From IMG/VR virus record IMGVR_UViG_3300014205_000176: a stretch of DNA of 64,000 nt. One strand, 5' to 3'. Below, piece after piece: positions 3,061-63,565 of the stretch; position 1 is the first letter of the stretch; the number at the start of each line of letters is the position of its first letter. The position numbers were made by a program, and so were the translations under genes. Below the pieces are notes generated by a model. The model did no database searches, was not told where the DNA came from, and saw nothing but the letters and a program-made list of their open reading frames with translations. The stretch is from a virus (taxonomy: Duplodnaviria; Heunggongvirae; Uroviricota; Caudoviricetes).

Positions 3061-3971
3061 TGCGTTACAGGAAAGACAAAATGAACAAGCTACAAAAAAT
3101 TGCCGAAGACACAATCGCTGCTATCGATGCCGAGAAGTACACCACTCCTTCAGGCCGCACGCTATCGCTCGACAAGCTGATGGCATCCTGCACTCGAAGG
3201 TCAGTTCTCTACAAGCCAGATGGCATTGCGGAACTGGAGAAGTCCAATGGTCTCACTCGGAAGATCGTGGTGGCTCCAGAGATCATGGTGACGAGGGAGT
3301 CAACGCTGGAGGCTGCGGCGCGGTTGGCTGGTGAGCGTCCCTGCATCCTCAACTTCGCTTCGGCAAAACACCCTGGTGGCGGCTTCCTGCGTGGGTCTCC
3401 GGCGCAAGAGGAGAGTATTGCGCGCAGCTCTGGGTTGTTCCCAACGCTGATTCGGCACCCTGAGTTCTACGAAGAGAACAAGAAGTCACAGAGAAATAAC
3501 ATTGGGTTGTATTTGGACTATGCCATTTACTCTCCGGATGTTCCAGTCATCCGCAATGATGCTGGTGAATGGTTAGAGGAACCATACTTTGTGTCTGTTG
3601 TTACATCGCCAGCTCCTAATCGTCATGCAATCTTCGATGATGAAGACAACAAGATGGATGACGATCAAGAGGAAGCAATGGAGATGAAGATTGAACAGAC
3701 TTTTTCAAAGAGAATGAAACAAGTACTCTCAATCATGGCAGCTCAAGGACATCGAACGATCATCCTGGGAGCGTGGGGATGCGGGGTATTTGGCAATGAT
3801 CCATTGATGGTTGCTGAATTGTTCAGAGACAACTTGAAGCTTCTGCCGTTTTTTGATAAAGTGGCGTTCCCAATATACGACCGGTCGGACTCAGAAACGC
3901 TCCGGTCATTCGTTCAAATCTTCGGGCCGGAGGTTGACCCACGGACCGGTTCGAAACCACAACCGAATTGA
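3057..3971 (+). CDS. bacterial-type poly(ADP-ribose) glycohydrolase-like macrodomain protein (DUF2263/TIGR02452-like)
   Basis: PARG signature GGG-x7-QEE ('HPGGGFLRGSPAQEES') plus 'ILGAWGCGVFGNDP' macrodomain-like segment. Confidence 0.6.
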   Translation: MMRYRKDKMNKLQKIAEDTIAAIDAEKYTTPSGRTLSLDKLMASCTRRSVLYKPDGIAELEKSNGLTRKIVVAPEIMVTRESTLEAAARLAGERPCILNFASAKHPGGGFLRGSPAQEESIARSSGLFPTLIRHPEFYEENKKSQRNNIGLYLDYAIYSPDVPVIRNDAGEWLEEPYFVSVVTSPAPNRHAIFDDEDNKMDDDQEEAMEMKIEQTFSKRMKQVLSIMAAQGHRTIILGAWGCGVFGNDPLMVAELFRDNLKLLPFFDKVAFPIYDRSDSETLRSFVQIFGPEVDPRTGSKPQPN

Positions 3972-16733: not shown

Positions 16734-18422
16734 ATGTTGACAAATTCTGCCAAAAGAGTTGCTGACACAATTGTTCACACCCTTATTTCATCTAATATAA
16801 ATCACTTCTTTGGAGTTCCAGGAGGCCCAATCTCTCCCATATTCGATGCCATTCTGGGCAACACCACTGCGACACTCATCGAATCGCGGCAAGAAACAGG
16901 CGCTGCCTTTGCCGCTGGGGGCTACAATCGCATCAGTGGACACGTTCCATGCGTCATGGTCACAGCTGGACCTGGAGCTACCAATGTAGTGACTGGTGTG
17001 ACAGCGGCTTACCTAGAGCATACCCCAATGATCGTGCTGGCTGGAGACGTTTCATGGACGAAGGGGGGCCGGATGCTTCAAGACTCTGGACCGCAGGGCA
17101 TTGATATGGAAGGAATGTTTCGCGGAGTTACCAAAGCTACTATTCGCATTCGACAAGCCAAGTCTGCTGCAGCTCATGTGATGGCTGCGATCCAAATTGC
17201 AACCAATCCTAATAACCCTGGCCCGGTTTTGATTGTTATTGCAATTGAAGTAGCATCTGAATTGGAAGTCACACCAGAAACTCAAATGATGGCATGCTAC
17301 TTGGACTACCGAATCAGTCAGGCAACTGTAGAAATGATTCGAGACAAGATAATCAATGCAGAGCGACCATTGCTAGTATTGGGAGCTGGGTGTCGGCCAT
17401 TTGCGCAATCTTTAGAGACGCTGCTATCTATCTTCAAAGTTCCGTTCGTTACTACGCCGAGAGGTAAAGGAGTTGTCAGCGAGTCCCACTCTTGTTCTTT
17501 GAGGCACGGTGGGCTGGCTGCTTCAATGTGGGCGCGTGAGTATTGTCAAAGGGGTGTTGACTTCGCATTGGTTTTGGGAACTGATCTTGACGATTGTTCT
17601 ATAGGCCCTACCAAGTACATCCGAGAAGGTGGAGAGTTGGTACATGTGGATTTGGATTCCACGGTCTTCAATCGTAACCTACCAACCACACTGGGATTGG
17701 TGACAAATGTTGGTAGTCTTCTCAACCAATTAATTGTGGCTACCTTCGATATGGCTATCAATCTGAAGGATGAGGTGCGAGAGATTAAGTCGCACTCTGC
17801 TTTCGACGTTTGGGATTTTGAGACTCAGCCCAGCGTCATCATCACACCATACAGAGCCATCTTTGATCTTCAAACTGCTTGCCCAGATGCACGTTTCGTT
17901 ACCGATATTGGGGAGCACATGCTTTTTGCACTACACTACCTAACGGCTACGAATCCCCAACAATTCACCATTCATTTAGGATTGGGAAGCATGGGGTCTG
18001 GTATTTGCTCAGCGATTGGAATGGCCATTGCTGATAGGGGAACGGGAGTAATTTGCATATGTGGAGATGGTGGAATGCAAATGAATGGTATGGAGGTGAT
18101 AACCGCAAAGATGCAGCGTCTTCCAATTCTGTTCGCGATATTTAATGACTCCAGATACAATATGGTATATCATGGTTACAAACAAGTCTACGGGAAAGAA
18201 ACACCAGTCGAAACTCCATTGATTGATTTTCGATCATGGGGGCTATCGATGGGGATTGCCTCTGAGCGCATCAATCATTCTGGTGAAATAACACCAAATT
18301 TAATTGGTGCTCTCATGCATGATGGACCGGCAATATTGGACATCAGGATTGACCGAAACTTTCACATTGCTGGCGGTGGAAGAAATGAAGCGCTACAACT
18401 AATGAGTCAACCGGAGAAATAA
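16734..18422 (+). CDS. thiamine-diphosphate-dependent enzyme (acetolactate synthase large subunit-like)
   Basis: N-terminal Pyr domain ('GVPGGPISPIFDAI...VTAGPGATNVVTGV...MIVLAGDV') and ThDP-binding motif 'GDGGMQMNGMEV...N'. Confidence 0.75.
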   Translation: MLTNSAKRVADTIVHTLISSNINHFFGVPGGPISPIFDAILGNTTATLIESRQETGAAFAAGGYNRISGHVPCVMVTAGPGATNVVTGVTAAYLEHTPMIVLAGDVSWTKGGRMLQDSGPQGIDMEGMFRGVTKATIRIRQAKSAAAHVMAAIQIATNPNNPGPVLIVIAIEVASELEVTPETQMMACYLDYRISQATVEMIRDKIINAERPLLVLGAGCRPFAQSLETLLSIFKVPFVTTPRGKGVVSESHSCSLRHGGLAASMWAREYCQRGVDFALVLGTDLDDCSIGPTKYIREGGELVHVDLDSTVFNRNLPTTLGLVTNVGSLLNQLIVATFDMAINLKDEVREIKSHSAFDVWDFETQPSVIITPYRAIFDLQTACPDARFVTDIGEHMLFALHYLTATNPQQFTIHLGLGSMGSGICSAIGMAIADRGTGVICICGDGGMQMNGMEVITAKMQRLPILFAIFNDSRYNMVYHGYKQVYGKETPVETPLIDFRSWGLSMGIASERINHSGEITPNLIGALMHDGPAILDIRIDRNFHIAGGGRNEALQLMSQPEK

Positions 18423-18423
18423 G

Positions 18424-19494
18424 ATGATACAAGCAAAAATCGCAGGTATGGGGCAATGGATTCCGGAAGAAGTTCGCACAAATGATGCGTGGCCATTAGG
18501 TTTCGCCGAGTTATCAAAGGCGTCATCTCAACGAGAACTGATCGATATTGAACAAAAAGCATCTTGTTTAGCTGATGAAATCACTTTACGAAACATGAAT
18601 GCTGAGGCCGGAGATCCTTTTCTTGGGGCTTGTGAACGTCGAATCGCTTCACCCGACATAACTCCCGCCGAGGCTGCAACTCATGCTGCCAGAGCAGCTA
18701 TCAAAGATGCTGGTGTAGACCCAAAAGATATCGATGCGGTACTATCATGGGATGCCGTACCCGAGCTTGTTGGACCATCATCATCTTCGCGTGTGGCTTA
18801 TTTAGTAGGCGCTCATAATGCGTATGGTGTGGGTATTGATGTGGCCTGCGCTTCGTTTATTAGCCAACTTGATTTGGCATCGGCGCTCATCAAAGCTGAA
18901 CATGCTAAGACAATTCTATTGACTCAAACGCACTTTATGACGCGGCCAATCAAGATGATGCATCCTGCATCTCCGACAGTCGGTGATATTGCCACAGCAG
19001 CTGTTGTTACAGCACAAACAGATTTAAGCAAGGGCATTTTACCAATGCATGCACGCAGCTATGGAGAAGCTTATTATGCCGTACTGTGGACTCGTGGCCA
19101 GAAAGTACAAAATACATGGTATCAAAAAGGTGGCGATTTCTATCTGGGAACAGCAGATTTAGATATAGTTCGAGAGTTGGTGCGAACCACCGTGCGTGGT
19201 GCCTCTGAGATGATTCTAGAGACTTTGGCAAAAAGCAATTGTCCTTTGGATGAGGTTAGTGCGCTGATTAGTATTCAACCTCGCAAATGGATTCCAGCGG
19301 CTATAGCTGAAGCGGCTGGGATTAAAGCTCCAGCTCCAACCACATTTGATAGGTTCTGTCACATTGGTGGTTGTGGCCTAGTGGCAAATCTTATTAAGGC
19401 CCGAGAAATGGGATTACTCACACCACAAGCGAAAACTATATTGTTCGGACAAGGAGCTGGATTTATCAAAGCCGCAATGCTAATTTTGTGGTGA
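18424..19494 (+). CDS. 3-oxoacyl-ACP synthase III (FabH)-like / thiolase-fold condensing enzyme
   Basis: 'GIDVACASFISQLDLA' active-site Cys context; 356 aa; 1-nt gap after the ThDP enzyme gene suggests co-translation. Confidence 0.55.
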   Translation: MIQAKIAGMGQWIPEEVRTNDAWPLGFAELSKASSQRELIDIEQKASCLADEITLRNMNAEAGDPFLGACERRIASPDITPAEAATHAARAAIKDAGVDPKDIDAVLSWDAVPELVGPSSSSRVAYLVGAHNAYGVGIDVACASFISQLDLASALIKAEHAKTILLTQTHFMTRPIKMMHPASPTVGDIATAAVVTAQTDLSKGILPMHARSYGEAYYAVLWTRGQKVQNTWYQKGGDFYLGTADLDIVRELVRTTVRGASEMILETLAKSNCPLDEVSALISIQPRKWIPAAIAEAAGIKAPAPTTFDRFCHIGGCGLVANLIKAREMGLLTPQAKTILFGQGAGFIKAAMLILW

Positions 19495-19529: not shown

Positions 19530-19826
19530 TTATACCAAAGGAAGTTTTAGTTGATTTCCATTGCTATGTCGTGCTGAACAGGCCATCTTGATTTTCTGGA
19601 TTTCTACGTCTAGTACTTCAGTTCTCTTTTCCAGTGCTTCAATTTTCTTTAACGATGTTTCATAGAGCTTTATAGCCCATGGTGGTGGTTCATTAGAGGC
19701 GAGTTGAGATTCTATACGCTGCATAGCTCCGACAAGATAAGCTAATACATCATCTTGACTAATCATTGGTCCATTTGGGTTCGTTGGCAGTTCTGAATCG
19801 GTCATGATACTTTCTCCTTGTAGCAT
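19530..19826 (-). CDS. hypothetical coiled-coil protein
   Basis: 98-aa ORF convergent with the FabH-like gene. Confidence 0.4.
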   Translation of the reverse strand: MLQGESIMTDSELPTNPNGPMISQDDVLAYLVGAMQRIESQLASNEPPPWAIKLYETSLKKIEALEKRTEVLDVEIQKIKMACSARHSNGNQLKLPLV

Positions 19827-20433
19827 ACGATAATATTATATCGTCTGTAATAATCTAACTAATAAATTTCAATTCTTTCATTGAGAACATAGTAATTAAC
19901 CTCTGGGGACTTTACAATATTGAAATATAACATTTCAAATATGAACTTACCGTACGGCTGACCGATTGACGTGGATGTAGTCCGTTCTACCTCCAAAGAT
20001 CGGATCCTTTCTCAATAAACTTGACTACTAAACGCCAGATAGATAACTTGCTCGGCACATTGGGAAATGCGTTCGGAGACCGAATCCGGGGAGACTGCTT
20101 GCTTAGGGAGCCGGGTAGATGGTCTGAGGAGGCCGGGTGGATTCGACACTGCTAGTGATCAGCAACTTCGATTTGATAAAATTCGGATGTCCTCATTGCG
20201 GGTCTCTGGAGGGTGGAATATTTATCGAGAATGGAACCTGCTCTATTTGGAGTTGTGGGAATTGTGCAAAGGACTGTGCTGTGGTTGGAAAATCTATCGA
20301 AGAGGTTGCACAATTCACTCTTCGGAATACTGACATCAAAGATCTGATTGGAAATCATCCGTACCAAAATGGGGATTGCCAAATCAATTCCTATGCTTTG
20401 CGGATGAATAATCTTCCAATTGGTTAATTACTT

Positions 20434-20484
20434 AGGCTCATTGCTAATTGGATGCGGTTCTCGGTTCGAATCCGAGTGGGCCTA
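20434..20484 (+). ncRNA. tRNA-like minihelix (acceptor stem plus T-arm only); candidate Y-RNA-like (YrlA-type) module or tRNA remnant
   Basis: AGGCTCA (20434-40) pairs with TGGGCCT (20477-83); T-arm CTCGG-TTCGAAT-CCGAG (20460-76); discriminator A; no D or anticodon arm between. Confidence 0.3.
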
Positions 20485-20668
20485 CTTCACATGCAGTCTT
20501 AACTTTTCGCCGAAGGAGACAGGCTGCATGTGATTTTTCTATCCTGTGCTGATATTTATTCATTACCAAAAAGTATTGATATAGATATTGTGCGGGTTGA
20601 TTCCCGTTCACTAATAACAAGCCCATAAAACGCTCTGTTGGAGCAGCATGGGTTCGTAGAGGTATATC

Positions 20669-21667
20669 ATGGTACAAAAGAAAATTACAAAGACAACTAG
20701 CAAAGCAAAGAAAACCGCCTCTGATATCGTGGAAGATGTAACCACGGCAGCCCCAGTCGATGAGAAGGCTCGTAAAGTTCGTGCCCAATATAAAGACCAG
20801 GCTGTTGCAGACTCAGCATCGCTAACTGTTGAGAGGGTTACTCAATCACTAACCAAGGCCGGTCTTGATATTACTAAGACCTTACACTCTGTTCGGGAGC
20901 TTTTCGAGTCTGAGATTTCTGCACTTCAGACGATCAAGGAAGCAATCGAGGCAAAGCAAGAGGAATTGGGAGAGCTTTATGACAAGGAAGTTATAGCGGC
21001 TTCTTTGACAGAACTGGTTCTTCAATACGAAGCTCGCAAGGCTGACCTATTGAAGGCCGAGGAAGAGGCTCGCAAGGCATGGTCCAAAGAGCAGACTGAT
21101 CACGCGGCAGCTCTCCGAGAACGCACCGAGCAGGTGTCTAAGGAGCGCACTCGTGAACAAGAAGAGTTCGAATACGCCAAGGGTATTGCTCGCCGAAATG
21201 CAGAAGATGCGTGGAAGGCGGAACATTCAAAGCGTGTTCTGGAATTGAAGCAGGTAGAAGAAGCCCATCAAAAGAATTGGAGTGAGCGAGAGCAGGTTAT
21301 CCAGAAGACGGAAGCTGAAATTGCTGCATCCAAATCTAAGCTCGATAATTTCGACGCCACTGTCAAAGCAGATGTTGATAAGCAAGTTGCAATTATCGGG
21401 AATGCAATGAAGTCCAAGTACGAAACCGAAGCCAGAATTAAATCTCTGGAATTCGATGGCGAAAAGAAACTCCTTGAGAGAGACAATGCAACGCTCAAAG
21501 AATTGCTTGGAATCAAAGAGATGGAAATGGCTCAGCTGCGAGCTGCTCTAGAGAAGAAGGATTCCGAGGTAAAGGAAGTCGCAGTAGCGGCGCTGAATTC
21601 GCAGTCCGGCAAGCAAGCATTGGCTGCCGTGCAAGAAATGAATCAGAACCAAGGCGGCAAAAAGTAA
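20669..21667 (+). CDS. coiled-coil protein (Glu/Lys/Ala-rich)
   Basis: 332-aa ORF with a strong terminator downstream. Confidence 0.5.
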   Translation: MVQKKITKTTSKAKKTASDIVEDVTTAAPVDEKARKVRAQYKDQAVADSASLTVERVTQSLTKAGLDITKTLHSVRELFESEISALQTIKEAIEAKQEELGELYDKEVIAASLTELVLQYEARKADLLKAEEEARKAWSKEQTDHAAALRERTEQVSKERTREQEEFEYAKGIARRNAEDAWKAEHSKRVLELKQVEEAHQKNWSEREQVIQKTEAEIAASKSKLDNFDATVKADVDKQVAIIGNAMKSKYETEARIKSLEFDGEKKLLERDNATLKELLGIKEMEMAQLRAALEKKDSEVKEVAVAALNSQSGKQALAAVQEMNQNQGGKK

Positions 21668-21676
21668 AGATAGGAT

Positions 21677-21713
21677 CGAGGGGCGGAAAAAACACCGCCC
21701 CTCGGTTTGTTTG
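21677..21713 (+). terminator. rho-independent terminator
   Basis: 10-bp GC stem CGAGGGGCGG / CCGCCCCTCG with an 8-nt loop, followed by GTTTGTTTG. Confidence 0.65.
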
Positions 21714-21796
21714 ATTGACAGGGACCGTGGCAATGAATAGTATGCACGCTGTGCCGGGGGCGCTCCTAAGACGCCATCGAAGACACGGAGAATACA

Positions 21797-22537
21797 ATGC
21801 CAAAACTCAATCAGATAATTGCCATTGAAGATGGTGCGAAGAAGACAGGTTACGCAGATCTAACCAAGACACATCATGTCTTGCAGAAGCCAGATTTGTT
21901 TTCTGGGTTTGTGGCAACGTATGCTCCTCACACCGAAGACCCAACGCTGAAACAAGCTGACCAGCGCAAGGTCATCCAGCAAAGCGCTCCGGATATCGTC
22001 AAACTGGCTCAAGCTGGCCTGGCCGAGATGTGGAATGTGGTAGCCACCAAGGACATCGGCAACTGCTCTGCTAAGGCAGATGTAGTGGTGGATGGCGTAA
22101 CGTTGGCTTCACAAGTTCCAGTTACTCATTTGCTTTTCTTGGAGAAGCAATTGGGCGACATGAGAACATTCATTGCCAAACTTCCGGTATTGGATCCGGC
22201 AAAGGAATGGGAGTACGATCCTAATAAGGGAATGTACCAAACGAAATTCCACGAGCAGCGCATCAAGACTCGCAAGGTTCACAAGTCCTTGGTGAAGATT
22301 GAACCGGGGCCGCACTCTCCTGGACAAGCAGAAATCATTACCGTGGATGAGCCTGAAGGTGTTTGGACTCAGGTGGATATGTCTACAGCTTATCCACAAG
22401 ATGCCATTCGTCAGATGCTCGATCGAGTTGCCAAACTATCGGCAGCTGTGAAGTCGGCGCGTGAAGAAGCCAACTCCATTGATGTTACGAAAGCTACGAT
22501 GGCAGAAAAGCTTCTCAGTTTCATTTTTGGGACTTGA
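21797..22537 (+). CDS. hypothetical protein
   Basis: 246-aa ORF. Confidence 0.5.
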   Translation: MPKLNQIIAIEDGAKKTGYADLTKTHHVLQKPDLFSGFVATYAPHTEDPTLKQADQRKVIQQSAPDIVKLAQAGLAEMWNVVATKDIGNCSAKADVVVDGVTLASQVPVTHLLFLEKQLGDMRTFIAKLPVLDPAKEWEYDPNKGMYQTKFHEQRIKTRKVHKSLVKIEPGPHSPGQAEIITVDEPEGVWTQVDMSTAYPQDAIRQMLDRVAKLSAAVKSAREEANSIDVTKATMAEKLLSFIFGT

Positions 22538-22736
22538 TCCCAAGGGGAGGTTAGTGCTGATACCACTTTCCTTCCACCAGTTCGCCCACCACGTAGATCC
22601 GGAAGTTTTTGTCCGGGTAGGCAAACCCTACTATAATAGGTGGAGTTAGGTCTGTGGGTGAGCACCAATTTCTCTCTCCGGCTGTGAAAGGCTTGAGAGG
22701 GACGCCCCCTTGATGGGGGTTTCAGCAGACAAGTTG

Positions 22737-22760
22737 AATCTCAATCTCAATCTCAATCTG
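22737..22760. repeat. tandem hexamer repeat (AATCTC)x3 plus AATCTG
   Basis: Read directly from the sequence, inside a 620-nt non-coding stretch. Confidence 0.8.
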
Positions 22761-22790
22761 AAAGCACAAGCGCGCGGGAGAAATCCCATT

Positions 22791-22815
22791 GCAGGTTCGA
22801 GTCCTGCCCCGGCTA
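22791..22815 (+). ncRNA. tRNA-like T-arm plus 3' acceptor strand
   Basis: GCAGG-TTCGAGT-CCTGC followed by CCCGGCT-A; the complementary 5' strands AGCCGGG/GGCCGGG lie about 2.7 kb upstream (20099-20127). Confidence 0.3.
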
Positions 22816-22956
22816 CCGGCCCTTGAGGCCTGCCATAAAGGCAATATAGTCGGGTGCCCAAACTGGCAAAGGGGCGCGTGGGCAAGTCAATCTATTCTGC
22901 TAATCTCAGTAAAACAGAGCCGATCTAATCAAGTTGTAGTGTATATGTAGAGGAAA

Positions 22957-23020
22957 TGTTGGTTCGATTCCAACTCTCCCGACAAAGTGTATCAGCAAAG
23001 TTATCATCGTTAGTACATTT
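22957..23020 (+). ncRNA. tRNA-like T-arm followed by a long imperfect inverted repeat
   Basis: GTTGG-TTCGATT-CCAAC, then CTCCCGACAAAGTGTA ... TACATTTTGTCGGGAG (16-bp inverted repeat, 1 mismatch). Confidence 0.3.
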
Positions 23021-23099
23021 TGTCGGGAGATAGTATAAGGGAAACACACCTCGCTTCAAAATTAACACTACATTAAACGCCGTAGGTTGGATAGCTGAT

Positions 23100-23148
23100 G
23101 GGCGACGAGGGAAAAATGGTTAAAACTCCCAAGTCGCCCTTTCTATTT
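23100..23148 (+). terminator. candidate terminator hairpin
   Basis: GGGCGAC ... GTCGCCC stem around an internal GGGA/TCCC stem, followed by TTTCTATTT. Confidence 0.3.
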
Positions 23149-23158
23149 AAGGACTAAT

Positions 23159-23437
23159 ATGATTGGCCTAATCAAAGATCCTGAAGAACTTCGAGATTGG
23201 TTAAAGGGAAGGCGCAGGGCCAATCTCCGAGTGTGTTCAAATGCTCATCTTAGAATGCTTGGGTTTGCGGATGTATCAACCGCTGACTACATTACTTGCG
23301 ACATAACCACATTCATAAAAGCCAGAGACCTATATAAGGTATACATCAAAATCAACAAAGCTAAAGCTGAGGAGAATGATGGGGCTATGCTTCAGCACTG
23401 GTTGAAGGTGATTGTGATAAATAGTATCCAAAGATAG
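23159..23437 (+). CDS. hypothetical protein
   Basis: 92-aa ORF with AAGGA RBS. Confidence 0.4.
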   Translation: MIGLIKDPEELRDWLKGRRRANLRVCSNAHLRMLGFADVSTADYITCDITTFIKARDLYKVYIKINKAKAEENDGAMLQHWLKVIVINSIQR

Positions 23438-33934: not shown

Positions 33935-34390
33935 ATGGAACCTGAAGCTTACGTTACTGAGGTTGATGGGAAGTTAGTCTTGGTTGATCCAATGGCCTGT
34001 GCTATGATTGACGCTATCACCCAGCACAACAAAAGCCTTTGCCGCAGCACCCTCGAACTACAACTGGATCGGGCTAAGCATTTCGCTCGAAGGGTCCGGG
34101 AGTTGGGTCGGCGGCCATCCGAAGTGGTTATCGTGCTGCTCAACGTTGACGATCCTCAGGGCGGCGCAGTGGCAGACATCCTGATGCCCGGCCACGATTG
34201 GCAACAGTTCCGTGATCGTGGGGAGGTTCCGTTCGCGCGTGGGCTTGCCGGACGTGAGGGGCTTCAGGGAATCTTGGATGAACTTGACCCGCTGGAAGGC
34301 CAGAAGCTACGAGAGGCATGGATGGTCAACACTGTGGTTGTAATGGACCACGGCGCGGTTGAGGTGTTCAAAGAGGGAGAGGATTTTTAG
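33935..34390 (+). CDS. hypothetical protein
   Basis: 151-aa ORF ending 1 nt before the cas3 start. Confidence 0.4.
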   Translation: MEPEAYVTEVDGKLVLVDPMACAMIDAITQHNKSLCRSTLELQLDRAKHFARRVRELGRRPSEVVIVLLNVDDPQGGAVADILMPGHDWQQFRDRGEVPFARGLAGREGLQGILDELDPLEGQKLREAWMVNTVVVMDHGAVEVFKEGEDF

Positions 34391-34391
34391 T

Positions 34392-36737
34392 ATGCTAGCT
34401 AATTCAGACCACAGACAAGAACTTACAAAACACTGCGTTGGTGCGATGATGTTAGCTATGCATTGCGCCAAGCACCTTGGGATTTCCGATGACGATCTAA
34501 TCAACGTGATTGGTTTGTCGGCATTCCTTCATGACATTGGGAAGTGTACCGTATATTTTAACAACATTTCCTTGGCTAGTGACTATAGCGAGGAGAATAA
34601 ACAGAAGCATTATCCTAAATACTCTGGACAGCATGAATATCCAAGGCACAATGAGATTTCATGGGTATATGCGACATTTCATGCAAAGGCCAAGGGTCGT
34701 GGTGTTCGGTTCAAAGACATCGGGCCGCAGGCGATCTATTGGCATCACGGTACGTTGCTGAATTCGTACGAGATTTTAGATCAAACCTCTCCTAGAAACA
34801 CACACACCGTCATTGGCGAGCTGAAACTATTCGATGAAAACGAATGGACGAAGATATCAGAGACAATTGATGGTATTCTGAAGTCTGTTCAGTTCCCATT
34901 TGATGTCACCAAGTACCTAGAGGATGACGTTGATGACGAACCTCGCAATATTCCAAGGTTGTTTACCGATGATGGTGATGAAAGTAGCCTGACCAACGCT
35001 CATCGCATGATTGCCAGGAGTTGCGTTATCTTCTCCGACCACATTGTATCCAAGCTATCGATAGAAGAGCTGGATGACCTGATTGAAAATAGTGCTGATT
35101 CATACTTCCCTAAGGGAAGGGATATAAGGTACGAAAATTTTCAATGTCCAATCACATATGACCAGGAACGATTTCAGATTCAAAAGGACATTGTAAACTC
35201 TTGTGAACGAACGACATTAGTAAAAGGTTCTGCGGGATTTGGTAAGTCGCTGGTTGGTTTGATGTGGGGAGCCCAGAAGTCCGGACCGGTGTATTGGGTA
35301 TGCCCAAGAAATGCAGTTGCTGAAGGTGTATATTTAAATCTATTGAAGGAGATTGATATCCTTGGACTTGGTACAATCTCCATTGAACTGTACCACGCAG
35401 GAGAGCGTAAAGCTACCAACTCACCAAGTGTACCAGATTGTGGTTGTGACATTGTGGTAACCAATATTGACAACCTTCTATCGCCAATGGTTGATTCAAA
35501 ATCGATTGCGAGGTTGTTTGATGTTACAGCTCGCAATGTGGTGCTTGATGAGTTTCATGAATTCCTTAATGATGAGGCTTTGTTTGGGGCGTTTGTCATC
35601 TATATGAGGGCGCGCAATCTGGTATGTGCGAACAGTCATACACTGCTACTCTCAGCTACCCCATCGATAATGCATAAATTCTGGGAAGGTGAAGGTAACT
35701 CTAGAAGGACAAAAATCCTTCCAAATCCAACTGAACATTATCTAGCACAGCATAAGAAGCTTTACAAGATATCTTTCGATGAAGACTTTGTTGAACACCC
35801 AATTGGTGGCTCTTTGACAATGTACTCATCGATCAGAAATGTTCAAGGGTGCTACGGCAACGGATACACTAGCATCGTTCATAGTAACTACGGAGAACCA
35901 GATCGCCATGCGATAATGAATGGAATTCTTAAGTCATTTGGGAAGGGTGGTGATAAGAATGGCACTGTGGTTTCAGCGCCGATTCTACAGGCCGCTCTTG
36001 ACATCAGCTTCAGAGGGCTATTCAAAACCATAGAATCACCAGAATCCGATATACAAACTTTCGGAAGAATCAACCGATGGGGAGAACAAGACGGTGTATG
36101 TGAACTCGTCATGCTTAAACTTAGGAGTAATAAAGGTGAGAGGTCGGCCATCAGCGAACGGTACAGCTGTCATCTATCGGATCTTTGGAGCCGTATGTTA
36201 GAGGGCGAGGCATCCGAACCAGTTGATTTGGATTTCCTATACCGATTGTATAACAAATTCAATAAGGTTTACAACGATGAGCTAGTTGCGTTTATTAAAA
36301 ATAAGTATCTGATATCAATTGATAAGTTGAAGACATTCTTCCCAAGGGCGCGCAAACATCAGAGTGGCAAGAGTAAAGTTGTAACTGCCAAGACGCTGAG
36401 GAATAGTTCGAGTTCGTGTTTTATTGTGGTGAAAAACAGAACAACTGGAGTTTGGTGCCCTTTCACATTCAATATTCAAGACATCGAACTGAAGGATCTG
36501 ATTGCTGATAATAGAAGAAGAATAGAATCTTCTACATTGAAAACGGTATGGGAATCGTTAGAGGCCACAGGTGAGTTTGACTATGCCGAACTAACGAAAA
36601 TGTTCTTTGGTAAGAAGAAACCAAAGAGGCTAACGGTTGAAAACCTGAAGCCATTTGCTCGTTGTGGAGAAACACCACTACCAATCTTTACGTGGTACTA
36701 CGATGCAACGCTTGGTCTCGTCAAAGCGCGAGTGTGA
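34392..36737 (+). CDS. cas3: Cas3 (HD nuclease fused to SF2 helicase)
   Basis: HD motifs 'AMHCAKH...FLHDIGK'; helicase motif I 'GSAGFGKS', motif II 'VVLDEFHEF' (DExH), motif III 'LLSATP'; 781 aa from the ATG after the upstream stop. Confidence 0.8.
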   Translation: MLANSDHRQELTKHCVGAMMLAMHCAKHLGISDDDLINVIGLSAFLHDIGKCTVYFNNISLASDYSEENKQKHYPKYSGQHEYPRHNEISWVYATFHAKAKGRGVRFKDIGPQAIYWHHGTLLNSYEILDQTSPRNTHTVIGELKLFDENEWTKISETIDGILKSVQFPFDVTKYLEDDVDDEPRNIPRLFTDDGDESSLTNAHRMIARSCVIFSDHIVSKLSIEELDDLIENSADSYFPKGRDIRYENFQCPITYDQERFQIQKDIVNSCERTTLVKGSAGFGKSLVGLMWGAQKSGPVYWVCPRNAVAEGVYLNLLKEIDILGLGTISIELYHAGERKATNSPSVPDCGCDIVVTNIDNLLSPMVDSKSIARLFDVTARNVVLDEFHEFLNDEALFGAFVIYMRARNLVCANSHTLLLSATPSIMHKFWEGEGNSRRTKILPNPTEHYLAQHKKLYKISFDEDFVEHPIGGSLTMYSSIRNVQGCYGNGYTSIVHSNYGEPDRHAIMNGILKSFGKGGDKNGTVVSAPILQAALDISFRGLFKTIESPESDIQTFGRINRWGEQDGVCELVMLKLRSNKGERSAISERYSCHLSDLWSRMLEGEASEPVDLDFLYRLYNKFNKVYNDELVAFIKNKYLISIDKLKTFFPRARKHQSGKSKVVTAKTLRNSSSSCFIVVKNRTTGVWCPFTFNIQDIELKDLIADNRRRIESSTLKTVWESLEATGEFDYAELTKMFFGKKKPKRLTVENLKPFARCGETPLPIFTWYYDATLGLVKARV

Positions 36738-36759
36738 AGAAAGTAACAGATAGGATAAC

Positions 36760-37836
36760 ATGATTAAATCAATTTTCATAAAGGCAGTTATTGAAGGTTC
36801 TGGGATTGTCAACTTCGATTCCAACGACCAACGCTTCATTTGGAACCGACAGCGCAATGTAGAAAGCGTTTGGCACAACAACGTGTCCTTTGGCAAAGGT
36901 CGTTACTATCCAGAGGTGGGGAGTGACGGTGACGATAGGGAATACCTAAAAAAAGTAGGTGTCATATCAGCGGACTGCATTCGTCACAGTATGTATGAGG
37001 ATTGTATGTTCATTCATCTTCCGAATGTCATGCATGATGATGGTTTGTTACTCAGCACGGTGGCTCATCCGGCATTTCTGGAGCGCGGGTATATGTTTGC
37101 TCGTGACAATCGCTCAAGTTGGAAGCGAAAGTCTGCATTTGCATTATCCTATGCCAGGGCAGTGACTAGTTCGGCCCCGATGCTAGAGACATACTCGAAC
37201 AGTCAACCAAAAACTGGCGAGAACAAAACGGAAGACGTGGCAGAAACATCATTCTTCAAGCGAGAAGTTCGAGGCGATACTACCTATGAACTTTCCGGGG
37301 CTATTGATGTGAGCGAGTTGGCATTCATTTCGCTTAGCGATGTCCATGACCGGTTGAGTTTCGACCTAGACTACGCCGCCAGATATCGCGAGCTTCTGAA
37401 AGGGCGGATGGGCTCAGAAATTCCGGAGCCTGCGTTCTTCCAGAAGAATGGTGATGTGTATGATATTCCCGAGTGTGGAATTTTGCTTACGCAGGCACAG
37501 GTCAAATTCCTAACCACGAACATTCTTCGGCGATTGGCGCTATTCAATGTAGTTCGAACTGTTACTGGAAGCGCCAAGACGGCGTCGGTGAGCATCAAGA
37601 TCGTCAGCGACCCTCTGGAGGATTTATTCGGCAATCCAGATGGTTGGGTTGAGATTTTTGATGGTAAAAAATTCGATGTTAGCGCTTTTGATGGCGAGTC
37701 TTTTGCAACGGCCTACACCAAAGTGAAGCTGCAGGAAGAGGCATTACAAAAATGCGATAGTTACAAGAAGAAGTTTGGCTACGAGAAGCCGGTGAAGGAA
37801 GAGAAACCTGCCAAGCCAGCGGCAAAGAAAAAGTAG
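36760..37836 (+). CDS. cas7: Cas7-like backbone subunit
   Basis: N-terminal 'IEGSGIVNFDSNDQ' and 'ISADCIRHSMYED' resemble the conserved Cas7 (I-B/I-C lineage) 'NPNGDP ... TDVCLKRKIR' segments; position between cas3 and cas5. Confidence 0.5.
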   Translation: MIKSIFIKAVIEGSGIVNFDSNDQRFIWNRQRNVESVWHNNVSFGKGRYYPEVGSDGDDREYLKKVGVISADCIRHSMYEDCMFIHLPNVMHDDGLLLSTVAHPAFLERGYMFARDNRSSWKRKSAFALSYARAVTSSAPMLETYSNSQPKTGENKTEDVAETSFFKREVRGDTTYELSGAIDVSELAFISLSDVHDRLSFDLDYAARYRELLKGRMGSEIPEPAFFQKNGDVYDIPECGILLTQAQVKFLTTNILRRLALFNVVRTVTGSAKTASVSIKIVSDPLEDLFGNPDGWVEIFDGKKFDVSAFDGESFATAYTKVKLQEEALQKCDSYKKKFGYEKPVKEEKPAKPAAKKK

Positions 37837-39493: not shown

Positions 39494-40689
39494 ATTTAAA
39501 TCCCTTCCGACAAGTGAAGGGGTCGAAACAGCTGGGCTTTCCAAGGCTGGCGTCGTTCACCTGAAATTTAAATCCCTTCCGACAAGTGAAGGGGTCGAAA
39601 CGCGTACAGGGACGCGTTGAGGCTTGCTGGTCTCGGTATTTAAATCCCTTCCGACAAGTGAAGGGGTCGAAACTCTGATGGTACGACATATGAAGCCCCA
39701 CACCAATATTTAAATCCCTTCCGACAAGTGAAGGGGTCGAAACAGCTTCTTCGGTGCCGTCTTGAAATAGAACTCAAGATTTAAATCCCTTCCGACAAGT
39801 GAAGGGGTCGAAACGACTAGACGAACAACTCAAACAACAGCTGGAACGATTTAAATCCCTTCCGACAAGTGAAGGGGTCGAAACGCCAACCCCTTAAGAG
39901 CTTGGCGCAAAGGACTTCGGTATTTAAATCCCTTCCGACAAGTGAAGGGGTCGAAACATGGTGGCCGTGGTCAGTGTTCTCCAACCAGCACCAATTTAAA
40001 TCCCTTCCGACAAGTGAAGGGGTCGAAACTGCATGCTTGGATGCGAGGGTAGGCGTAGGCGCTTAAATTTAAATCCCTTCCGACAAGTGAAGGGGTCGAA
40101 ACGAGACCATGATGTGGCATAGAACGCTTTGTAGACAGGATTTAAATCCCTTCCGACAAGTGAAGGGGTCGAAACCGACCATAGTGGAAAGTCTTTGATG
40201 TTTTTTGCCGAGATTTAAATCCCTTCCGACAAGTGAAGGGGTCGAAACGCCGGTACGAACGCGGCTGCAGAAACGGATCCAGATTCAAGTCCCTTCCAAT
40301 AAGTGAAGGGGTAGAAACAGTTCAGGGTGTTGTCTCAGAATATTGCTAAAGGTGATTTAAGTCCCTTCCAATAAGTGAAGGGGTAGAAACGAGATTGCGT
40401 ATCATCACTGCGTTTATGCGTATGGATTCAAGTCCCTTCTAATAAGTGAAGGGGTAGAAATGATTCTATGCCAGGTCGATACGACAGCGTCGAAGACATT
40501 CAAGTCCCTTCCAATAAGCCTTCCAAGTGAAGGGGTCGAAAACGTCGAATGGTGTACCAATATACTGGAGCCAATATCAAGTCCCTTCCGATAAGTGAAG
40601 GGGTCGAAAAAATGAAGGGTTGAAACGTGATTCAACAGGCGCGCAAAGGAAAGTCTAATCATCCCTTCTAATAGTGAAGGTGTCGAACG
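39494..40689 (+). CRISPR. CRISPR array of about 17 repeats (36 bp) and 16 spacers (34-38 nt)
   Basis: 11 near-identical repeats ATTTAAATCCCTTCCGACAAGTGAAGGGGTCGAAAC (39494-40248; internal 6-bp stem CCCTTC/GAAGGG, 8-nt 3' tag GTCGAAAC). Then 3 copies of a variant repeat ATTCAAGTCCCTTCCAATAAGTGAAGGGGTAGAAAC (40283-40461), one repeat with a 10-nt internal insertion (40498-40543), and 2 further degenerate copies up to about 40689. Confidence 0.95.
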
Positions 40690-62881: not shown

Positions 62882-63084
62882 CTATCCATTTGCAGTCGAG
62901 AGGCCTTAGCCTCACTCCAATAAATCCCAGAAGAAGAGAAACGGACTTGACAGCGGCTGGGATTCGGATAGAATGCTCACCCGGTTCGAAAAAAAATCGA
63001 ATCGTATACTAATAAGTTCGTATATTTTCTCAATGGCGCTTCACAGAGGGTTGGTCCCTCACCTACTACATAAGTTGGAAAACT

Positions 63085-63565
63085 CAGCTTTATGCCTCGC
63101 GTCCGGTAAAATGGATTCACTTTTGTGAAGCTTACACGCCGTGGTTCGACTCCACAAAGCGCCACGATCCTTTGACACTACTCCCCCGTAATCAAAGGAT
63201 AAGTGATCAGGGCCTTGAACAGTTCTGGTTGCACTAAAGCTATCAACATACCGTGCTTACACGCTCATAACGTACGTCCGGACAGAGTTCCGGACAACCC
63301 AAAAGCACTGTTACTCGATAGCTTAAATTCTTGGGGTTATATCGAGGTTTGGTACCTCAACTGACAGTTAATCAGAATATAATTTCGCATTAGCACTCGC
63401 GTCCTTCAGAAGATGCATAAGTTAAAGCGTACAAGCTCGTGGTTCGATTCCACGTAACCCCGCCAACGCAGTCAAATTCGAGATGCATACACGCAATTAT
63501 GCCAAATGGTTAGGCATTTCTCTTGAAAAGAAAAAATAGTAGGTTCAATTCCTGCATTTGCAACA
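63085..63565 (+). ncRNA. cluster of tRNA-like T-arm/acceptor motifs (candidate tRNA genes or Y-RNA-like modules)
   Basis: No ORF over 70 aa over about 730 nt. T-arm-like units GTGG-TTCGACT-CCAC (63141-55), CGTGG-TTCGATT-CCACG followed by TAACCCC-G-CCA (63438-65) with complementary GGGGTTA at 63333-39, and GTAGG-TTCAATT-CCTGC (63543-59); the repeated word CTCGCGTCC occurs twice. Confidence 0.3.

What the first reader, a model, noticed from the sequence alone, without database searches (positions are those of the whole stretch)
19830..23158. tRNA-like minihelices and complementary acceptor halves 2.7 kb apart in large non-coding stretches
Two unusually long non-coding stretches (about 840 nt and 620 nt) flank two ordinary genes. 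Together they contain three tRNA-like units. The first is an armless minihelix AGGCTCA…CTCGG-TTCGAAT-CCGAG-TGGGCCT-A (20434-20484). The second is a T-arm plus 3' acceptor strand GCAGG-TTCGAGT-CCTGC-CCCGGCT-A (22791-22815). The third is a T-arm followed by a 16-bp inverted repeat (22957-23020). The 3' strand CCCGGCT has perfectly complementary 5' partners AGCCGGG and GGCCGGG at 20099-20127, the latter followed by TGGATTCGAC, which matches the tmRNA/tRNA D-loop-analogue sequence. This could be Y-RNA-like (YrlA-type) tRNA mimics that partner the Ro60 homologue, a disrupted or intron-containing tmRNA/tRNA, or att-site remnants.
Basis: seen in the sequence. Interest (0 to 1): 0.6.

Follow-up and report, generated by a model that had tools for sequence, protein, structure and literature searches.

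The report
Twin tRNA-mimic RNA partnered with DUF7873
Two of the three "tRNA-like units" belong to one conserved, roughly 480-base structured RNA with two rearranged tRNA-shaped domains that always sits just after a gene of unknown function (DUF7873) in huge phages and many soil bacteria, while the third unit is a broken tRNA-Met gene and the supposed long-range pairing is chance.

Summary
The T-arm motifs are real: GGTTCRANTCC occurs 8 times in the window against 0.22 expected. The finding splits into three unrelated things.

1. The "tmRNA-like" GGCCGGG-TGGATTCGAC is the ribosome-binding site and GTG start of a conserved 96-aa zinc-ribbon ORF (20137-20427). The AGCCGGG partner 2.7 kb away occurs at chance frequency.

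2. Unit 1 (20434-20484) is a derivative of a tRNA-Met(CAU) gene that has lost its anticodon arm. The gene is intact at the same position in sister phages and absent from others.

3. Units 2 and 3 are the two heads of one non-coding RNA, about 22672-23149, with its own promoter-like site and a terminator-like hairpin. Each head is a circularly permuted tRNA-like domain of the YrlA type: T-arm, then a 7-bp closed acceptor stem, then a D-arm, closed by an anticodon-stem-like helix.

This RNA directly follows the DUF7873 gene in the intact phage loci retrieved and in 79 of 80 sampled bacterial genomes (Streptomyces, Frankia, Chloroflexota, Planctomycetota). Covariation is strong: 96.7% of cells paired and 20 of 20 pairs with compensatory changes.

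It is not a Y RNA in the strict sense. There is no Ro60-binding motif, no TROVE protein, and Rfam YrlA scores 18 bits against a cut-off of 69. It is not in Rfam and I found no paper describing it. Its function is unknown. My inference is a DUF7873 ribonucleoprotein that engages tRNA-recognising machinery.

The parts
20126..20427 (+). Small zinc-ribbon protein gene: Shine-Dalgarno GAGGAGG at 20126-20132, GTG start at 20137, 96 aa with CPHCG...C..C motifs. The 'tmRNA-like' GGCCGGG-TGGATTCGAC is its ribosome-binding spacer and first codons.
   Evidence: ORF listed. 64% aa identity (E 4e-48) to L001:3319-3621. 78% to L004 and 43% to L021 by tblastn. No tmRNA by ARAGORN or Rfam.
20434..20484 (+). 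Unit 1: a 51-nt tRNA-Met(CAU) derivative lacking the anticodon arm. It keeps a 7-bp acceptor stem (AGGCTCA/TGGGCCT), a D-arm remnant, the T-arm and discriminator A.
   Evidence: Sister phages L024 (2618-2693) and L025 (34-109) carry an intact 76-nt tRNA-Met(CAT) at the same place, between the same ORF and the same terminator. L114 has another version with a degenerate anticodon arm. It is absent from L001, L004, L026, L110 and L112.
20488..20539 (+). Terminator-like hairpin after unit 1: CACATGCAG...CTGCATGTG followed by ATTTTTC.
   Evidence: Read from the sequence. Conserved in L024, L025 and L026. Its 27-nt loop is too long for the terminator scan (loop 3-8).
21797..22537 (+). DUF7873 gene (246 aa), the invariable upstream neighbour and presumed protein partner of the RNA.
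   Evidence: Pfam PF25283, E 1.3e-80. 2010 homologues. The RNA lies directly downstream in phage and bacterial loci.
22609..22637 (+). Sigma-70-like promoter TTGTCC-17-TATAAT, just upstream of the conserved RNA.
   Evidence: Consensus scan, 10 of 12 matches. This is a pattern match only. The surrounding segment 22540-22671 is missing from L001.
22672..22720 (+). 5' hairpins of the RNA: P1 (22672-22701) and P2 (CCCCCT...GGGGGT, 22705-22720).
   Evidence: RNAalifold on the window plus 4 relatives, with compensatory changes in P1. Coordinates.
22724..22761 (+). P3 5' strand AGCAGA (22724-22729), which pairs with TCTGCT at 22896-22901, followed by a single-stranded 6-nt-periodic leader (AATCTC x3.8, 22737-22759).
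   Evidence: Read by eye from the sequences, the helix changes between clades (GGAGYR/YRCUCC in other phages and bacteria). Periodic repeats are seen in the loci inspected by eye.
22768..22878 (+). It comprises a closing stem (22769-22773 with 22874-22878), a variable-arm hairpin GGGAGAAATCCC, the T-arm (22791-22807), acceptor 3' strand CCCGGCT plus A (22808-22815), a 31-nt loop with two small hairpins, acceptor 5' strand AGTCGGG (22848-22854) and the D-arm (22855-22873).
   Evidence: Covariance model R1, built without the window lineage: 34.7 bits, E 1e-12. Rfam YrlA partial match, 18.2 bits. Compensatory changes relative to L001. Family-wide covariation.
22896..22957 (+). Linker: P3 3' strand TCTGCT, then the 5' strands of the helices that enclose module B, namely P4 (22915-22927), P5 (GTTGTAGTGT, 22933-22942) and P6 (GAGG, 22950-22953).
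   Evidence: The equivalent nested helices covary in 20 bacterial sequences.
22958..23053 (+). It comprises the T-arm (22958-22974), an acceptor stem extended to about 20 bp in this clade (22975-22996 with 23009-23030) and a D-arm-like segment TAGTATAAGGGAAACAC (23031-23047).
   Evidence: R1 hit at 22937-23055, 21.9 bits, E 5e-7. Three compensatory pairs in the T-stem and several in the acceptor hairpin relative to L001.
23054..23097 (+). 3' strands of P6, P5 and P4, with the conserved internal-loop motif ATTAAACGCCG (23072-23082).
   Evidence: TTAAACGCC-like motifs appear in most phage and many bacterial loci at a fixed distance after the module B D-arm.
23100..23149 (+). Terminator-like hairpin at the 3' end of the RNA: GGGCGACGAGGGA...TCCCAAGTCGCCC followed by TTTCTATTT.
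   Evidence: with compensatory changes among relatives. Homologous terminator-like hairpins follow the RNA in bacterial loci. Its 14-nt loop is too long for the terminator scan (loop 3-8).

Best explanation
SHOWN. The 621-nt gap after the DUF7873 gene is a gene for one structured RNA of about 480-500 nt, roughly 22645/22672-23149 on the + strand. In each, the order is anticodon-stem-like closing helix, then variable region, T-arm, a 7-bp acceptor stem closed by a loop, D-arm, and back to the closing helix. The nucleotides that build the tRNA elbow are nearly invariant. The two heads sit inside further conserved helices (P1-P6), a 6-nt-periodic single-stranded leader and a conserved UUAAACGCC internal loop. 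The transcript ends in a terminator-like hairpin.

The DUF7873-plus-RNA pair is conserved from huge phages to Streptomyces, Frankia, Chloroflexota and Planctomycetota.

INFERRED. The RNA forms a ribonucleoprotein with DUF7873. It presents two L-shaped tRNA mimics to machinery that recognises the acceptor/T-arm and elbow of tRNA, such as RNase P, T- and D-loop modifying enzymes, the CCA-adding enzyme or the ribosome. This is analogous to the effector-binding tRNA-like domain of YrlA, but independent of Ro60.

The 7-bp acceptor stems make RNase P nicking of the acceptor loops plausible, which would give a multi-piece RNA. A whole tRNA-Thr nested in one such loop in a relative supports this. In phages the pair lies within tRNA and tmRNA clusters, so I infer a role in tRNA or translation upkeep during infection.

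SHOWN, and separate from the RNA. Unit 1 is a decaying tRNA-Met(CAU) gene. The 'tmRNA 5' end' is the ribosome-binding site and start codon of a conserved zinc-ribbon ORF.
For: Structure.
- Model R1 was seeded from 20 bacterial sequences and 1 distant phage sequence. In the window's 64 kb it hits two sites below E 0.01: 22774-22891 (E 1e-12) and 22937-23055 (E 5e-7).
- On 146 distinct sequences, 96.7% of cells are paired, 20 of 20 pairs have changes on both sides, and the covariation score is 0.684, against 0.178 for shuffles (0 of 500 reach the observed value) and 0.07-0.10 for slid controls.
- Module B is nested in three further covarying helices.
- A full model for the phage clade has 119 pairs, 45 of them with compensatory changes.
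- tRNA tertiary positions are nearly invariant: U8 150/150, A14 149/149, G18 144/147, G19 146/146, U54, C56 and A58 150/150, U55 147/150.

Linkage.
- The RNA lies directly 3' of DUF7873 in the 16 intact phage loci searched and in 79 of 80 bacterial loci. The one exception is a truncated contig.
- The same arrangement is seen in Reticulibacter and Pseudofrankia chromosomes, where the other neighbouring genes differ.
- It is also seen in Gordonia phage Phendrix and Klebsiella phage vB_KpM_FBKp24.
- In L004 the C-terminal half of DUF7873 and the RNA are lost together.

Processing hint. In L003 a complete tRNA-Thr lies inside the acceptor loop of module A. M. smegmatis YrlA, which also has a 7-bp acceptor stem, is cut by RNase P and receives CCA (PMC4201824).

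Unit 1 and the ORF.
Against: - There is no expression, binding or processing data. Physical association of DUF7873 with the RNA is inferred from gene adjacency alone.
- NCCA after the acceptor 3' strand is frequent but not conserved: ACCA in 16 of 72 copies of module A. A CCA end is therefore not a family feature.
- The closing stem of module A in the window was misaligned by the model, because this clade has an extra variable-arm hairpin.
- The D-stem of module B in the window has one mismatch.
- The alignment used for the covariation counts was fitted to the model, which favours the structure.
Confidence: 0.72

Rival explanations
1. Units 2 and 3 are genuine Y RNAs (YrlA or YrlB type) that bind a phage Ro60/Rsr homologue and tether it to an effector.
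For: YrlA is the only Rfam family matched. Scores are 18.2 bits in the window, 29.3 bits full-length in L003 and 31-39 bits in bacterial loci. The domain order is the same and the tertiary nucleotides are conserved. The window also encodes RtcB and a 644-aa protein with a C-terminal VWA domain, a layout like that of Ro60. Some jumbo phages are known to carry TROVE proteins (PMC7824862).
Against: All scores are far below the YrlA gathering score of 69. The window RNA has no GNCGAAN0-1G match, and matches across the family are scattered. The VWA protein has no TROVE hit even at E<=10, has no Ro60 match in PDB sequences, and lies 32 kb away. The RNA tracks DUF7873, and no TROVE gene is seen within 8 kb of it in bacterial chromosomes.
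Confidence: 0.06
2. The conserved region is a cis-acting 3' UTR of the DUF7873 mRNA. The tRNA-like heads would recruit RNase P or RNase Z to define or stabilise the mRNA 3' end, or would feed back on its translation. It would not be a trans-acting RNP.
For: The RNA is always on the same strand directly after the stop codon, only 13 nt away in L001. Most loci show no obvious separate promoter. tRNA-like 3' processing signals are known, for example MALAT1 mascRNA. Nested and adjacent tRNAs in phage loci imply RNase P activity on these transcripts.
Against: The window has its own promoter-like site between gene and RNA, in a clade-specific insertion. About 450 nt with two complete elbows, six further helices and an invariant internal loop, conserved across phyla, is far more than a processing signal needs. 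The two ideas are not mutually exclusive.
Confidence: 0.15
3. The region is a decayed tandem array of tRNA genes with no present function, and the model matches are the 'dimeric tRNA' artefact: the T-arm of one tRNA plus the D-arm of the next.
For: Chen et al. warn of exactly this artefact (PMC4201824). R1 does hit tandem tRNA junctions in phage tRNA arrays. ARAGORN-89-nt 'tRNAs' over the 5' domain plus T-arm A in 30 bacterial loci. Unit 1 nearby really is a decaying tRNA.
Against: The acceptor 3' strand pairs with the strand immediately downstream in 99.2% of cells, and all 7 pairs covary. That pairing would not exist between neighbouring tRNAs. The downstream acceptor strand of module A cannot pair with the acceptor 3' strand of module B. 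The upstream complement is 7 of 7 in only 17 of 72 loci and does not covary. The architecture is conserved from phages to four bacterial phyla, next to one specific gene.
Confidence: 0.03
4. A permuted (two-piece) or disrupted tmRNA: T-arm plus acceptor 3' strand upstream, acceptor 5' strand downstream, followed by a tag reading frame.
For: The gene order resembles permuted tmRNA genes. ARAGORN calls a permuted 'tmRNA*' across the homologous RNA in L112. A GCC codon follows UUAAAC. Related phages carry tmRNA genes nearby.
Against: There is no ARAGORN tmRNA call and no Rfam tmRNA-family hit in the window, even at E<=10. The L112 'tag' is the N-terminus of the next conserved protein gene. Frames after GCC differ in length, for example 14 codons in the window and 3 in L001. 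That segment is the 3' strand of covarying helices. L002 and L011 carry a standard tmRNA as well as this RNA. The 5' 'GGATTCGAC' is coding sequence.
Confidence: 0.02
5. Unit 1 is not merely a pseudogene but a selected 'anticodon-less' minihelix, for example an RNase P or RNase Z punctuation site at the 3' end of the zinc-ribbon mRNA.
For: The acceptor stem stays 7 of 7 paired despite three differences from the intact L024 tRNA: G1-C72 to A1-U72, U6-G67 to C6-G67, and G7-C66 to A7-U66. A second lineage (L114) independently keeps the acceptor, D-arm and T-arm while its anticodon arm is degenerate, and there the element abuts the next start codon.
Against: The element is absent from five close relatives. 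Only two degenerate examples are known. The 5' half has diverged much more than the 3' half, as expected under relaxed constraint.
Confidence: 0.3

Closest known systems
YrlA, the bacterial Y RNA-like RNA (Rfam RF02553; Chen et al. 2014, PMC4201824; crystal structure described in bioRxiv 10.1101/312249)
   Same: Both have a circularly permuted tRNA-like domain: anticodon-like closing helix, variable region, T-arm, loop-closed acceptor stem, D-arm. Both conserve U8, A14, G18, G19, U54, U55, C56 and A58. Both occur in bacteria and phages. M. smegmatis YrlA also has a 7-bp acceptor stem and is cut by RNase P.
   Different: This RNA has no Ro60-binding helix or GNCGAAN0-1G motif and no neighbouring rsr gene. 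It carries two heads in one RNA of about 450 nt, with six extra helices and a periodic leader. It is linked to DUF7873 instead. Rfam scores are 18-39 bits against a cut-off of 69.
tmRNA, including permuted two-piece tmRNA
   Same: Both have a tRNA-like domain without an anticodon arm, embedded in a larger RNA with a dedicated small protein partner (SmpB there). In two-piece genes the T-arm and acceptor 3' strand precede the acceptor 5' strand. Both are found in phage tRNA clusters.
   Different: The acceptor here is closed by a loop. There is no conserved CCA, no G3:U70 pair, no tag reading frame and no pseudoknot series. No tmRNA model matches. The RNA coexists with a normal tmRNA in L002 and L011.
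GOLLD and ROOL, large ornate RNAs of phages
   Same: Large, highly structured non-coding RNAs that, from my own knowledge, are often encoded in phages next to tRNA genes. Their function is unknown.
   Different: Neither Rfam model matches at E<=10. This RNA is built around two tRNA mimics, has a fixed protein-gene neighbour, and is common in bacterial chromosomes.
Permuted tRNA genes of Cyanidioschyzon merolae, and tRNA-like 3' processing signals such as mascRNA
   Same: The gene order places the T-arm and acceptor 3' half before the acceptor 5' half and D-arm. tRNA-shaped elements of this kind serve as RNase P or RNase Z substrates. The second comparison is relevant to unit 1 and to loop nicking.
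   Different: There is no anticodon loop to restore by circularisation, because the closing helix runs on into other helices. No splicing-type motifs were seen. Unit 1 is in normal order and descends from a conventional tRNA-Met gene.

Membership tests
YrlA / bacterial Y RNA | tRNA-like domain in permuted order (closing helix, T-arm, closed acceptor stem, D-arm) | tested here: met
   R1 hits at 22774-22891 and 22937-23055. Family covariation: 96.7% paired, 20 of 20 pairs with compensatory changes.
YrlA / bacterial Y RNA | Conserved nucleotides for the tRNA tertiary fold (U8, A14, G18, G19, T-loop UUCRA) | tested here: met
   Near-invariant across 150 aligned modules. Present in both window modules.
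YrlA / bacterial Y RNA | Ro60-binding module: conserved helix with GNCGAAN0-1G on the 5' strand (PMC4201824) | tested here: not met
   No match in 22538-23160. Across 72 family members, matches occur in 26 but at scattered positions.
YrlA / bacterial Y RNA | Encoded next to an rsr (TROVE-domain Ro60) gene | tested here: not met
   The neighbour is DUF7873. The VWA protein at 55102-57036 has no TROVE hit. No TROVE gene lies within 8 kb in L022 or L023.
YrlA / bacterial Y RNA | Reaches the Rfam gathering score (69 bits) | tested here: not met
   18.2 bits in the window and 29-39 bits in relatives.
YrlA / bacterial Y RNA | Bound by Ro60 in vivo | not testable with these tools
   Needs co-immunoprecipitation.
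tmRNA (one-piece or permuted) | Detected by ARAGORN or by the Rfam tmRNA, alpha, beta or cyano models; acceptor stem made of the free 5' and 3' ends; tag reading frame | tested here: not met
   No hit at E<=10. 'GGATTCGAC' is the start of a conserved ORF. There is no conserved frame after UUAAAC-GCC.
tRNA (unit 1) | Complete cloverleaf with anticodon arm | tested here: not met
   Not called by ARAGORN or Rfam. About 24 nt are missing relative to the L024 tRNA-Met.
tRNA (unit 1) | Orthologous position and sequence to a genuine tRNA gene | tested here: met
   L024 and L025 carry tRNA-Met(CAT) between the same ORF and the same terminator.
GOLLD / ROOL / other curated large RNAs | Match to the Rfam covariance model | tested here: not met
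   cmscan of 19700-23300 at E<=10, and of related loci, lists none.
DUF7873-associated twin tRNA-mimic RNA (defined here) | Lies directly 3' of a DUF7873 gene on the same strand | tested here: met
   The gene ends at 22537 and the conserved RNA starts at 22672. The same arrangement holds in 79 of 80 bacterial loci and the 16 intact phage loci searched.
DUF7873-associated twin tRNA-mimic RNA (defined here) | Two permuted modules about 150-170 nt apart, the second nested in helices P4-P6, a UUAAACGCC internal loop, and a terminator | tested here: met

The most novel reading that the evidence does not exclude
DUF7873 and its twin tRNA-mimic RNA form a previously undescribed, widespread ribonucleoprotein of Actinomycetota, Chloroflexota, Planctomycetota and large phages. 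It would be a Ro60-independent branch of the Y-like tRNA mimics. RNase P may nick its two acceptor loops to give a multi-piece RNA with tRNA-like ends, and it may act on the tRNA or translation machinery. DUF7873 could be the kind of elbow- or stem-binding 'effector' long postulated for the YrlA tRNA-like domain.
Probability: 0.45. Interest if true: 0.8.

Novelty: new variant of a known kind. Interest (0 to 1): 0.7.

Why it matters
Permuted tRNA mimics were known only as the effector-binding half of Ro60-bound Y RNAs, and what that tRNA-like domain binds is still an open question.

Here the same kind of domain appears twice in a much larger RNA that covaries strongly. That RNA is tied to a different protein, DUF7873, which is about 45% identical between this phage and Streptomyces. 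DUF7873 is present in at least 566 bacterial species genomes and in cultured phages of Klebsiella, Gordonia, Arthrobacter, Vibrio and Rhizobium.

This gives a new, experimentally tractable RNA-protein pair with which to ask what closed tRNA mimics do. It explains a recurrent unannotated gap of about 500 nt in phage tRNA clusters. It also flags systematic mis-annotations over this RNA: false 'tRNA', 'tRNA-Sup' and permuted 'tmRNA' calls.

Tried and rejected
- tmRNA, or a split tmRNA/tRNA spanning 20.1-22.8 kb. Rejected: ARAGORN and Rfam are negative, the 5' motif is coding sequence, and the 7-mer occurs at chance frequency.
- Partnership with Ro60. Rejected: no TROVE domain and no Ro-binding motif.
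- att-site remnant. Rejected for unit 1, because a whole tRNA gene sits there in sister phages.
- Nucleotide search of the phage collection found nothing.
- PADLOC defence models gave no hit.
- An alternative 'normal-order' tRNA using an upstream acceptor strand, which ARAGORN calls in 30 bacterial loci. Rejected: that complement is 7 of 7 in only 17 of 72 loci and does not covary.
- Encoded CCA as a conserved feature. Rejected: it is a minority state.
- A tag-peptide frame after UUAAAC-GCC is not conserved.
- Literature searches for DUF7873, YrlA with phage, permuted tRNA with phage, tRNA-like with jumbo phage, and two or tandem tRNA-like domains found no description of this RNA. One review was not held in the library.

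Full report
**Setting**

The window looks like part of a very large phage. It encodes ThyX, an endolysin-like protein, NAD-dependent DNA ligase, RtcB, Cas3- and Cas7-like proteins and a radical SAM enzyme. Its relatives are IMG/VR viral contigs of 84-393 kb. ARAGORN and Rfam at gathering thresholds find only one tRNA in 64 kb, at 63492-63564.

**Checking the observation**

All three T-arm units exist at or within a base of the stated coordinates. The T-loop motif GGTTCRANTCC occurs 8 times in the window against 0.22 expected.

The rest of the observation does not hold.
- AGCCGGG occurs 4 times in the window against 4.4 expected by chance.
- The first "non-coding stretch" is not non-coding.

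**The first stretch (19827-20668)**

ORF 20137-20427 (96 aa, GTG start) is preceded by the Shine-Dalgarno sequence GAGGAGG. It encodes a CxxC...CxxC zinc-ribbon protein. That protein is 64% identical to an ORF at the syntenic place in L001 (E 4e-48), 78% identical in L004 and 43% in L021.

The "tmRNA D-loop-analogue" TGGATTCGAC is therefore G-TG GAT TCG AC, that is, the start codon and the next codons. No tmRNA model matches, even at E<=10. Upstream of the ORF is a divergent-promoter region. It contains a TTGACT-17-TAACTT element that is conserved with L001 and L004; this is my own reading.

**Unit 1 (20434-20484)**

Unit 1 lies 6 nt after the ORF's stop codon. It is followed by a hairpin plus T-run at 20488-20539.

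In sister phages L024 and L025, which are 87-88% identical over the whole region, the same slot holds an intact 76-nt tRNA-Met(CAT), followed by the same terminator. The window copy lacks about 24 nt, covering the D-stem 3' strand and the anticodon arm. L114 has a second variant with a degenerate anticodon arm. L001, L004, L026, L110 and L112 have no tRNA there at all.

Unit 1 is therefore a derivative of a dispensable phage tRNA gene. Its acceptor stem stays perfectly paired through three changes: A1-U72, C6-G67 and A7-U66. This leaves some room for a retained role as a processing minihelix. I give that about 0.3.

**The second stretch (22538-23158)**

This stretch really is free of conserved ORFs. 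From 22672 to 23152 it is 80% identical to L001, as conserved as the neighbouring protein gene, and the differences are compensatory. For example, the T-stem of unit 3 changes from GTTGG/CCAAC to GCCGA/TCGGC, and the acceptor of unit 2 changes from CCCGGCT/AGTCGGG to CCCGGCG/CGTCGGG.

The acceptor 3' strand of each unit pairs with a strand a few tens of nucleotides downstream, not upstream, and a D-arm follows. This is the circularly permuted order known from YrlA. YrlA is the only Rfam family that matches, and only weakly: 18.2 bits at E 2.8 in the window, and 29.3 bits full-length in L003.

**Comparative evidence**

The gene just upstream (21797-22537) is a DUF7873 protein (E 1.3e-80). Using it as an anchor, I retrieved 17 viral loci, 80 of at least 566 matching bacterial species genomes, two bacterial chromosomal contexts and several closer relatives. 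The same two-module element follows the gene in nearly all of them.

I built covariance model R1 from 20 bacterial sequences and one distant phage sequence. It encodes a 5-bp closing stem, a 5-bp T-stem, a 7-bp acceptor stem and a 3-bp D-stem.
- R1 finds the element 3' of DUF7873 in 79 of 80 bacterial loci; the exception is a truncated contig.
- It finds the element in the 16 intact phage loci searched.
- In the window it hits 22774-22891 (34.7 bits, E 1e-12) and 22937-23055 (21.9 bits, E 5e-7), plus one weak tandem tRNA-like junction at 63416.

On 146 distinct sequences, 96.7% of cells form pairs and all 20 pairs show changes on both sides. The covariation score is 0.684, against 0.178 in shuffles (0 of 500 reach the observed value) and 0.07-0.10 when the partners are slid. 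The alignment was fitted to the model, which favours the structure, but the margin is large.

The tRNA tertiary positions U8, A14, G18, G19, U54, U55, C56 and A58 are essentially invariant.

**Full architecture**

Module B is nested in three more covarying helices. A full model for the window clade has 119 pairs, 45 of them with compensatory changes. Mapped onto the window, the RNA reads as follows:
- hairpins P1 and P2;
- helix P3 (AGCAGA at 22724-22729 with TCTGCT at 22896-22901), which encloses a 6-nt-periodic leader (AATCTC x3.8) and module A;
- helices P4-P6, which enclose module B;
- an internal loop ATTAAACGCCG (23072-23082);
- a terminator-like hairpin (23100-23149).

A sigma-70-like site, TTGTCC-17-TATAAT, lies at 22609-22637.

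**Membership**

The element shares its fold with YrlA but fails the features that define a Y RNA.
- The window has no GNCGAAN0-1G motif, and family matches have no consistent position.
- No TROVE gene is nearby. The 644-aa protein at 55102-57036 shows only a VWA domain.
- Scores are far below the Rfam cut-off.

It is not a tmRNA, GOLLD or ROOL RNA. It is also not the "dimeric tRNA" artefact, because the two acceptor strands of a module covary with each other. The upstream complement that makes ARAGORN call false tRNAs in 30 bacterial loci is 7 of 7 in only 17 of 72 loci and does not covary.

**Mechanism (inferred)**

DUF7873 is about 45% identical between this phage and Streptomyces, has more than 2000 homologues, and keeps the RNA as its only constant neighbour. 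In L004 the C-terminal half of the gene and the RNA are lost together. I therefore infer a ribonucleoprotein.

The heads offer the acceptor/T-arm helix and elbow that RNase P, T- and D-loop modifying enzymes, the CCA-adding enzyme and the ribosome recognise.

Three observations make nicking of the acceptor loops plausible: the 7-bp acceptor stems, the precedent of M. smegmatis YrlA (PMC4201824), and a complete tRNA-Thr nested in the acceptor loop of module A in L003. However, NCCA after the 3' strand is only a minority state.

In phages the pair sits among tRNA and tmRNA genes, which suggests a role in tRNA or translation upkeep.

The DUF7873 model (pLDDT 87.6) gave no informative structural neighbour. 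The biochemical activity therefore remains open.

**Novelty**

The RNA is not in Rfam 15, and I found no paper in the searchable library that describes it or DUF7873. That library is incomplete. I classify it as a new variant of a known kind (YrlA-type tRNA mimics), with a new architecture and a new protein partner.

Noticed in passing
window 39494-40610, with 34359-37836: A CRISPR array of 16 repeats of about 36 nt (ATTTAAATCCCTTCCGACAAGTGAAGGGGTCGAAAC) with spacers of about 35 nt lies next to Cas3-like and Cas7/DevR-like genes. This looks like a phage-encoded CRISPR-Cas system.
   Followed up: partly
window 63035-63165 and 63333-63464: Two paralogous tRNA-like genes have perfect 7-bp acceptor stems, D-arms and T-arms. 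Each carries an insert of about 60 nt between the anticodon arm and the T-arm, sharing CTCGCGTCC. The anticodon-like loops are CAU-like and GUU-like. Neither ARAGORN nor Rfam calls them.
   Followed up: partly
L003 4807-4999: A complete tRNA-Thr(TGT) gene is nested inside the acceptor-stem loop of module A of the DUF7873-associated RNA. The module's own T-loop there is TTGGAGT.
   Followed up: partly
L002 5707-7436: A 393-kb phage contig carries two tRNAs with anticodon UCA (opal-suppressor type, which ARAGORN labels tRNA-SeC) and a standard tmRNA close to the DUF7873 RNA. Stop-codon recoding is possible.
   Followed up: no
L109 3518-3597 (Klebsiella phage vB_KpM_FBKp24, MW394391.1): The GenBank record annotates a 'tRNA-Sup-TTA' that overlaps module B of the RNA (R1 hit 3548-3666). 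This is probably a mis-annotation.
   Followed up: partly
L028-L107 (30 bacterial loci), e.g. L031 2257-2344: ARAGORN-89-nt 'tRNA-Phe/Leu/Val/???' genes made of the RNA's 5' domain plus T-arm A. It also calls a permuted 'tmRNA*' over the RNA in L112. Both are likely recurrent false annotations.
   Followed up: yes
L004 4240-5010: In a 392-kb relative, DUF7873 is interrupted by an insertion carrying a 184-aa ORF. The gene's C-terminal half and the RNA are missing.
   Followed up: partly
L110 4842-6620; L111 1893-3671: An IS605-type OrfB/TnpB (Cas12f-like) gene is inserted right after the RNA in a close relative whose DUF7873 is 93% identical.
   Followed up: no
window 48777-51035: RtcB is 752 aa. 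The Pfam RtcB match is in two stretches, the best covering residues 410-752, so most of the first 400 or so residues appear to be an extension or insert.
   Followed up: no
window 16734-19494: A thiamine-pyrophosphate enzyme (562 aa) and a KAS III-like condensing enzyme (356 aa) lie side by side in a phage-like genome.
   Followed up: no
window 20669-21667; L001 3611-3720: The 332-aa coiled-coil-like gene between unit 1 and DUF7873 is present in the window, L004, L024 and L114. In L001 and L026 it is deleted down to its last 40 or so nt. L001 shows a 29-nt direct repeat at the junction.
   Followed up: partly
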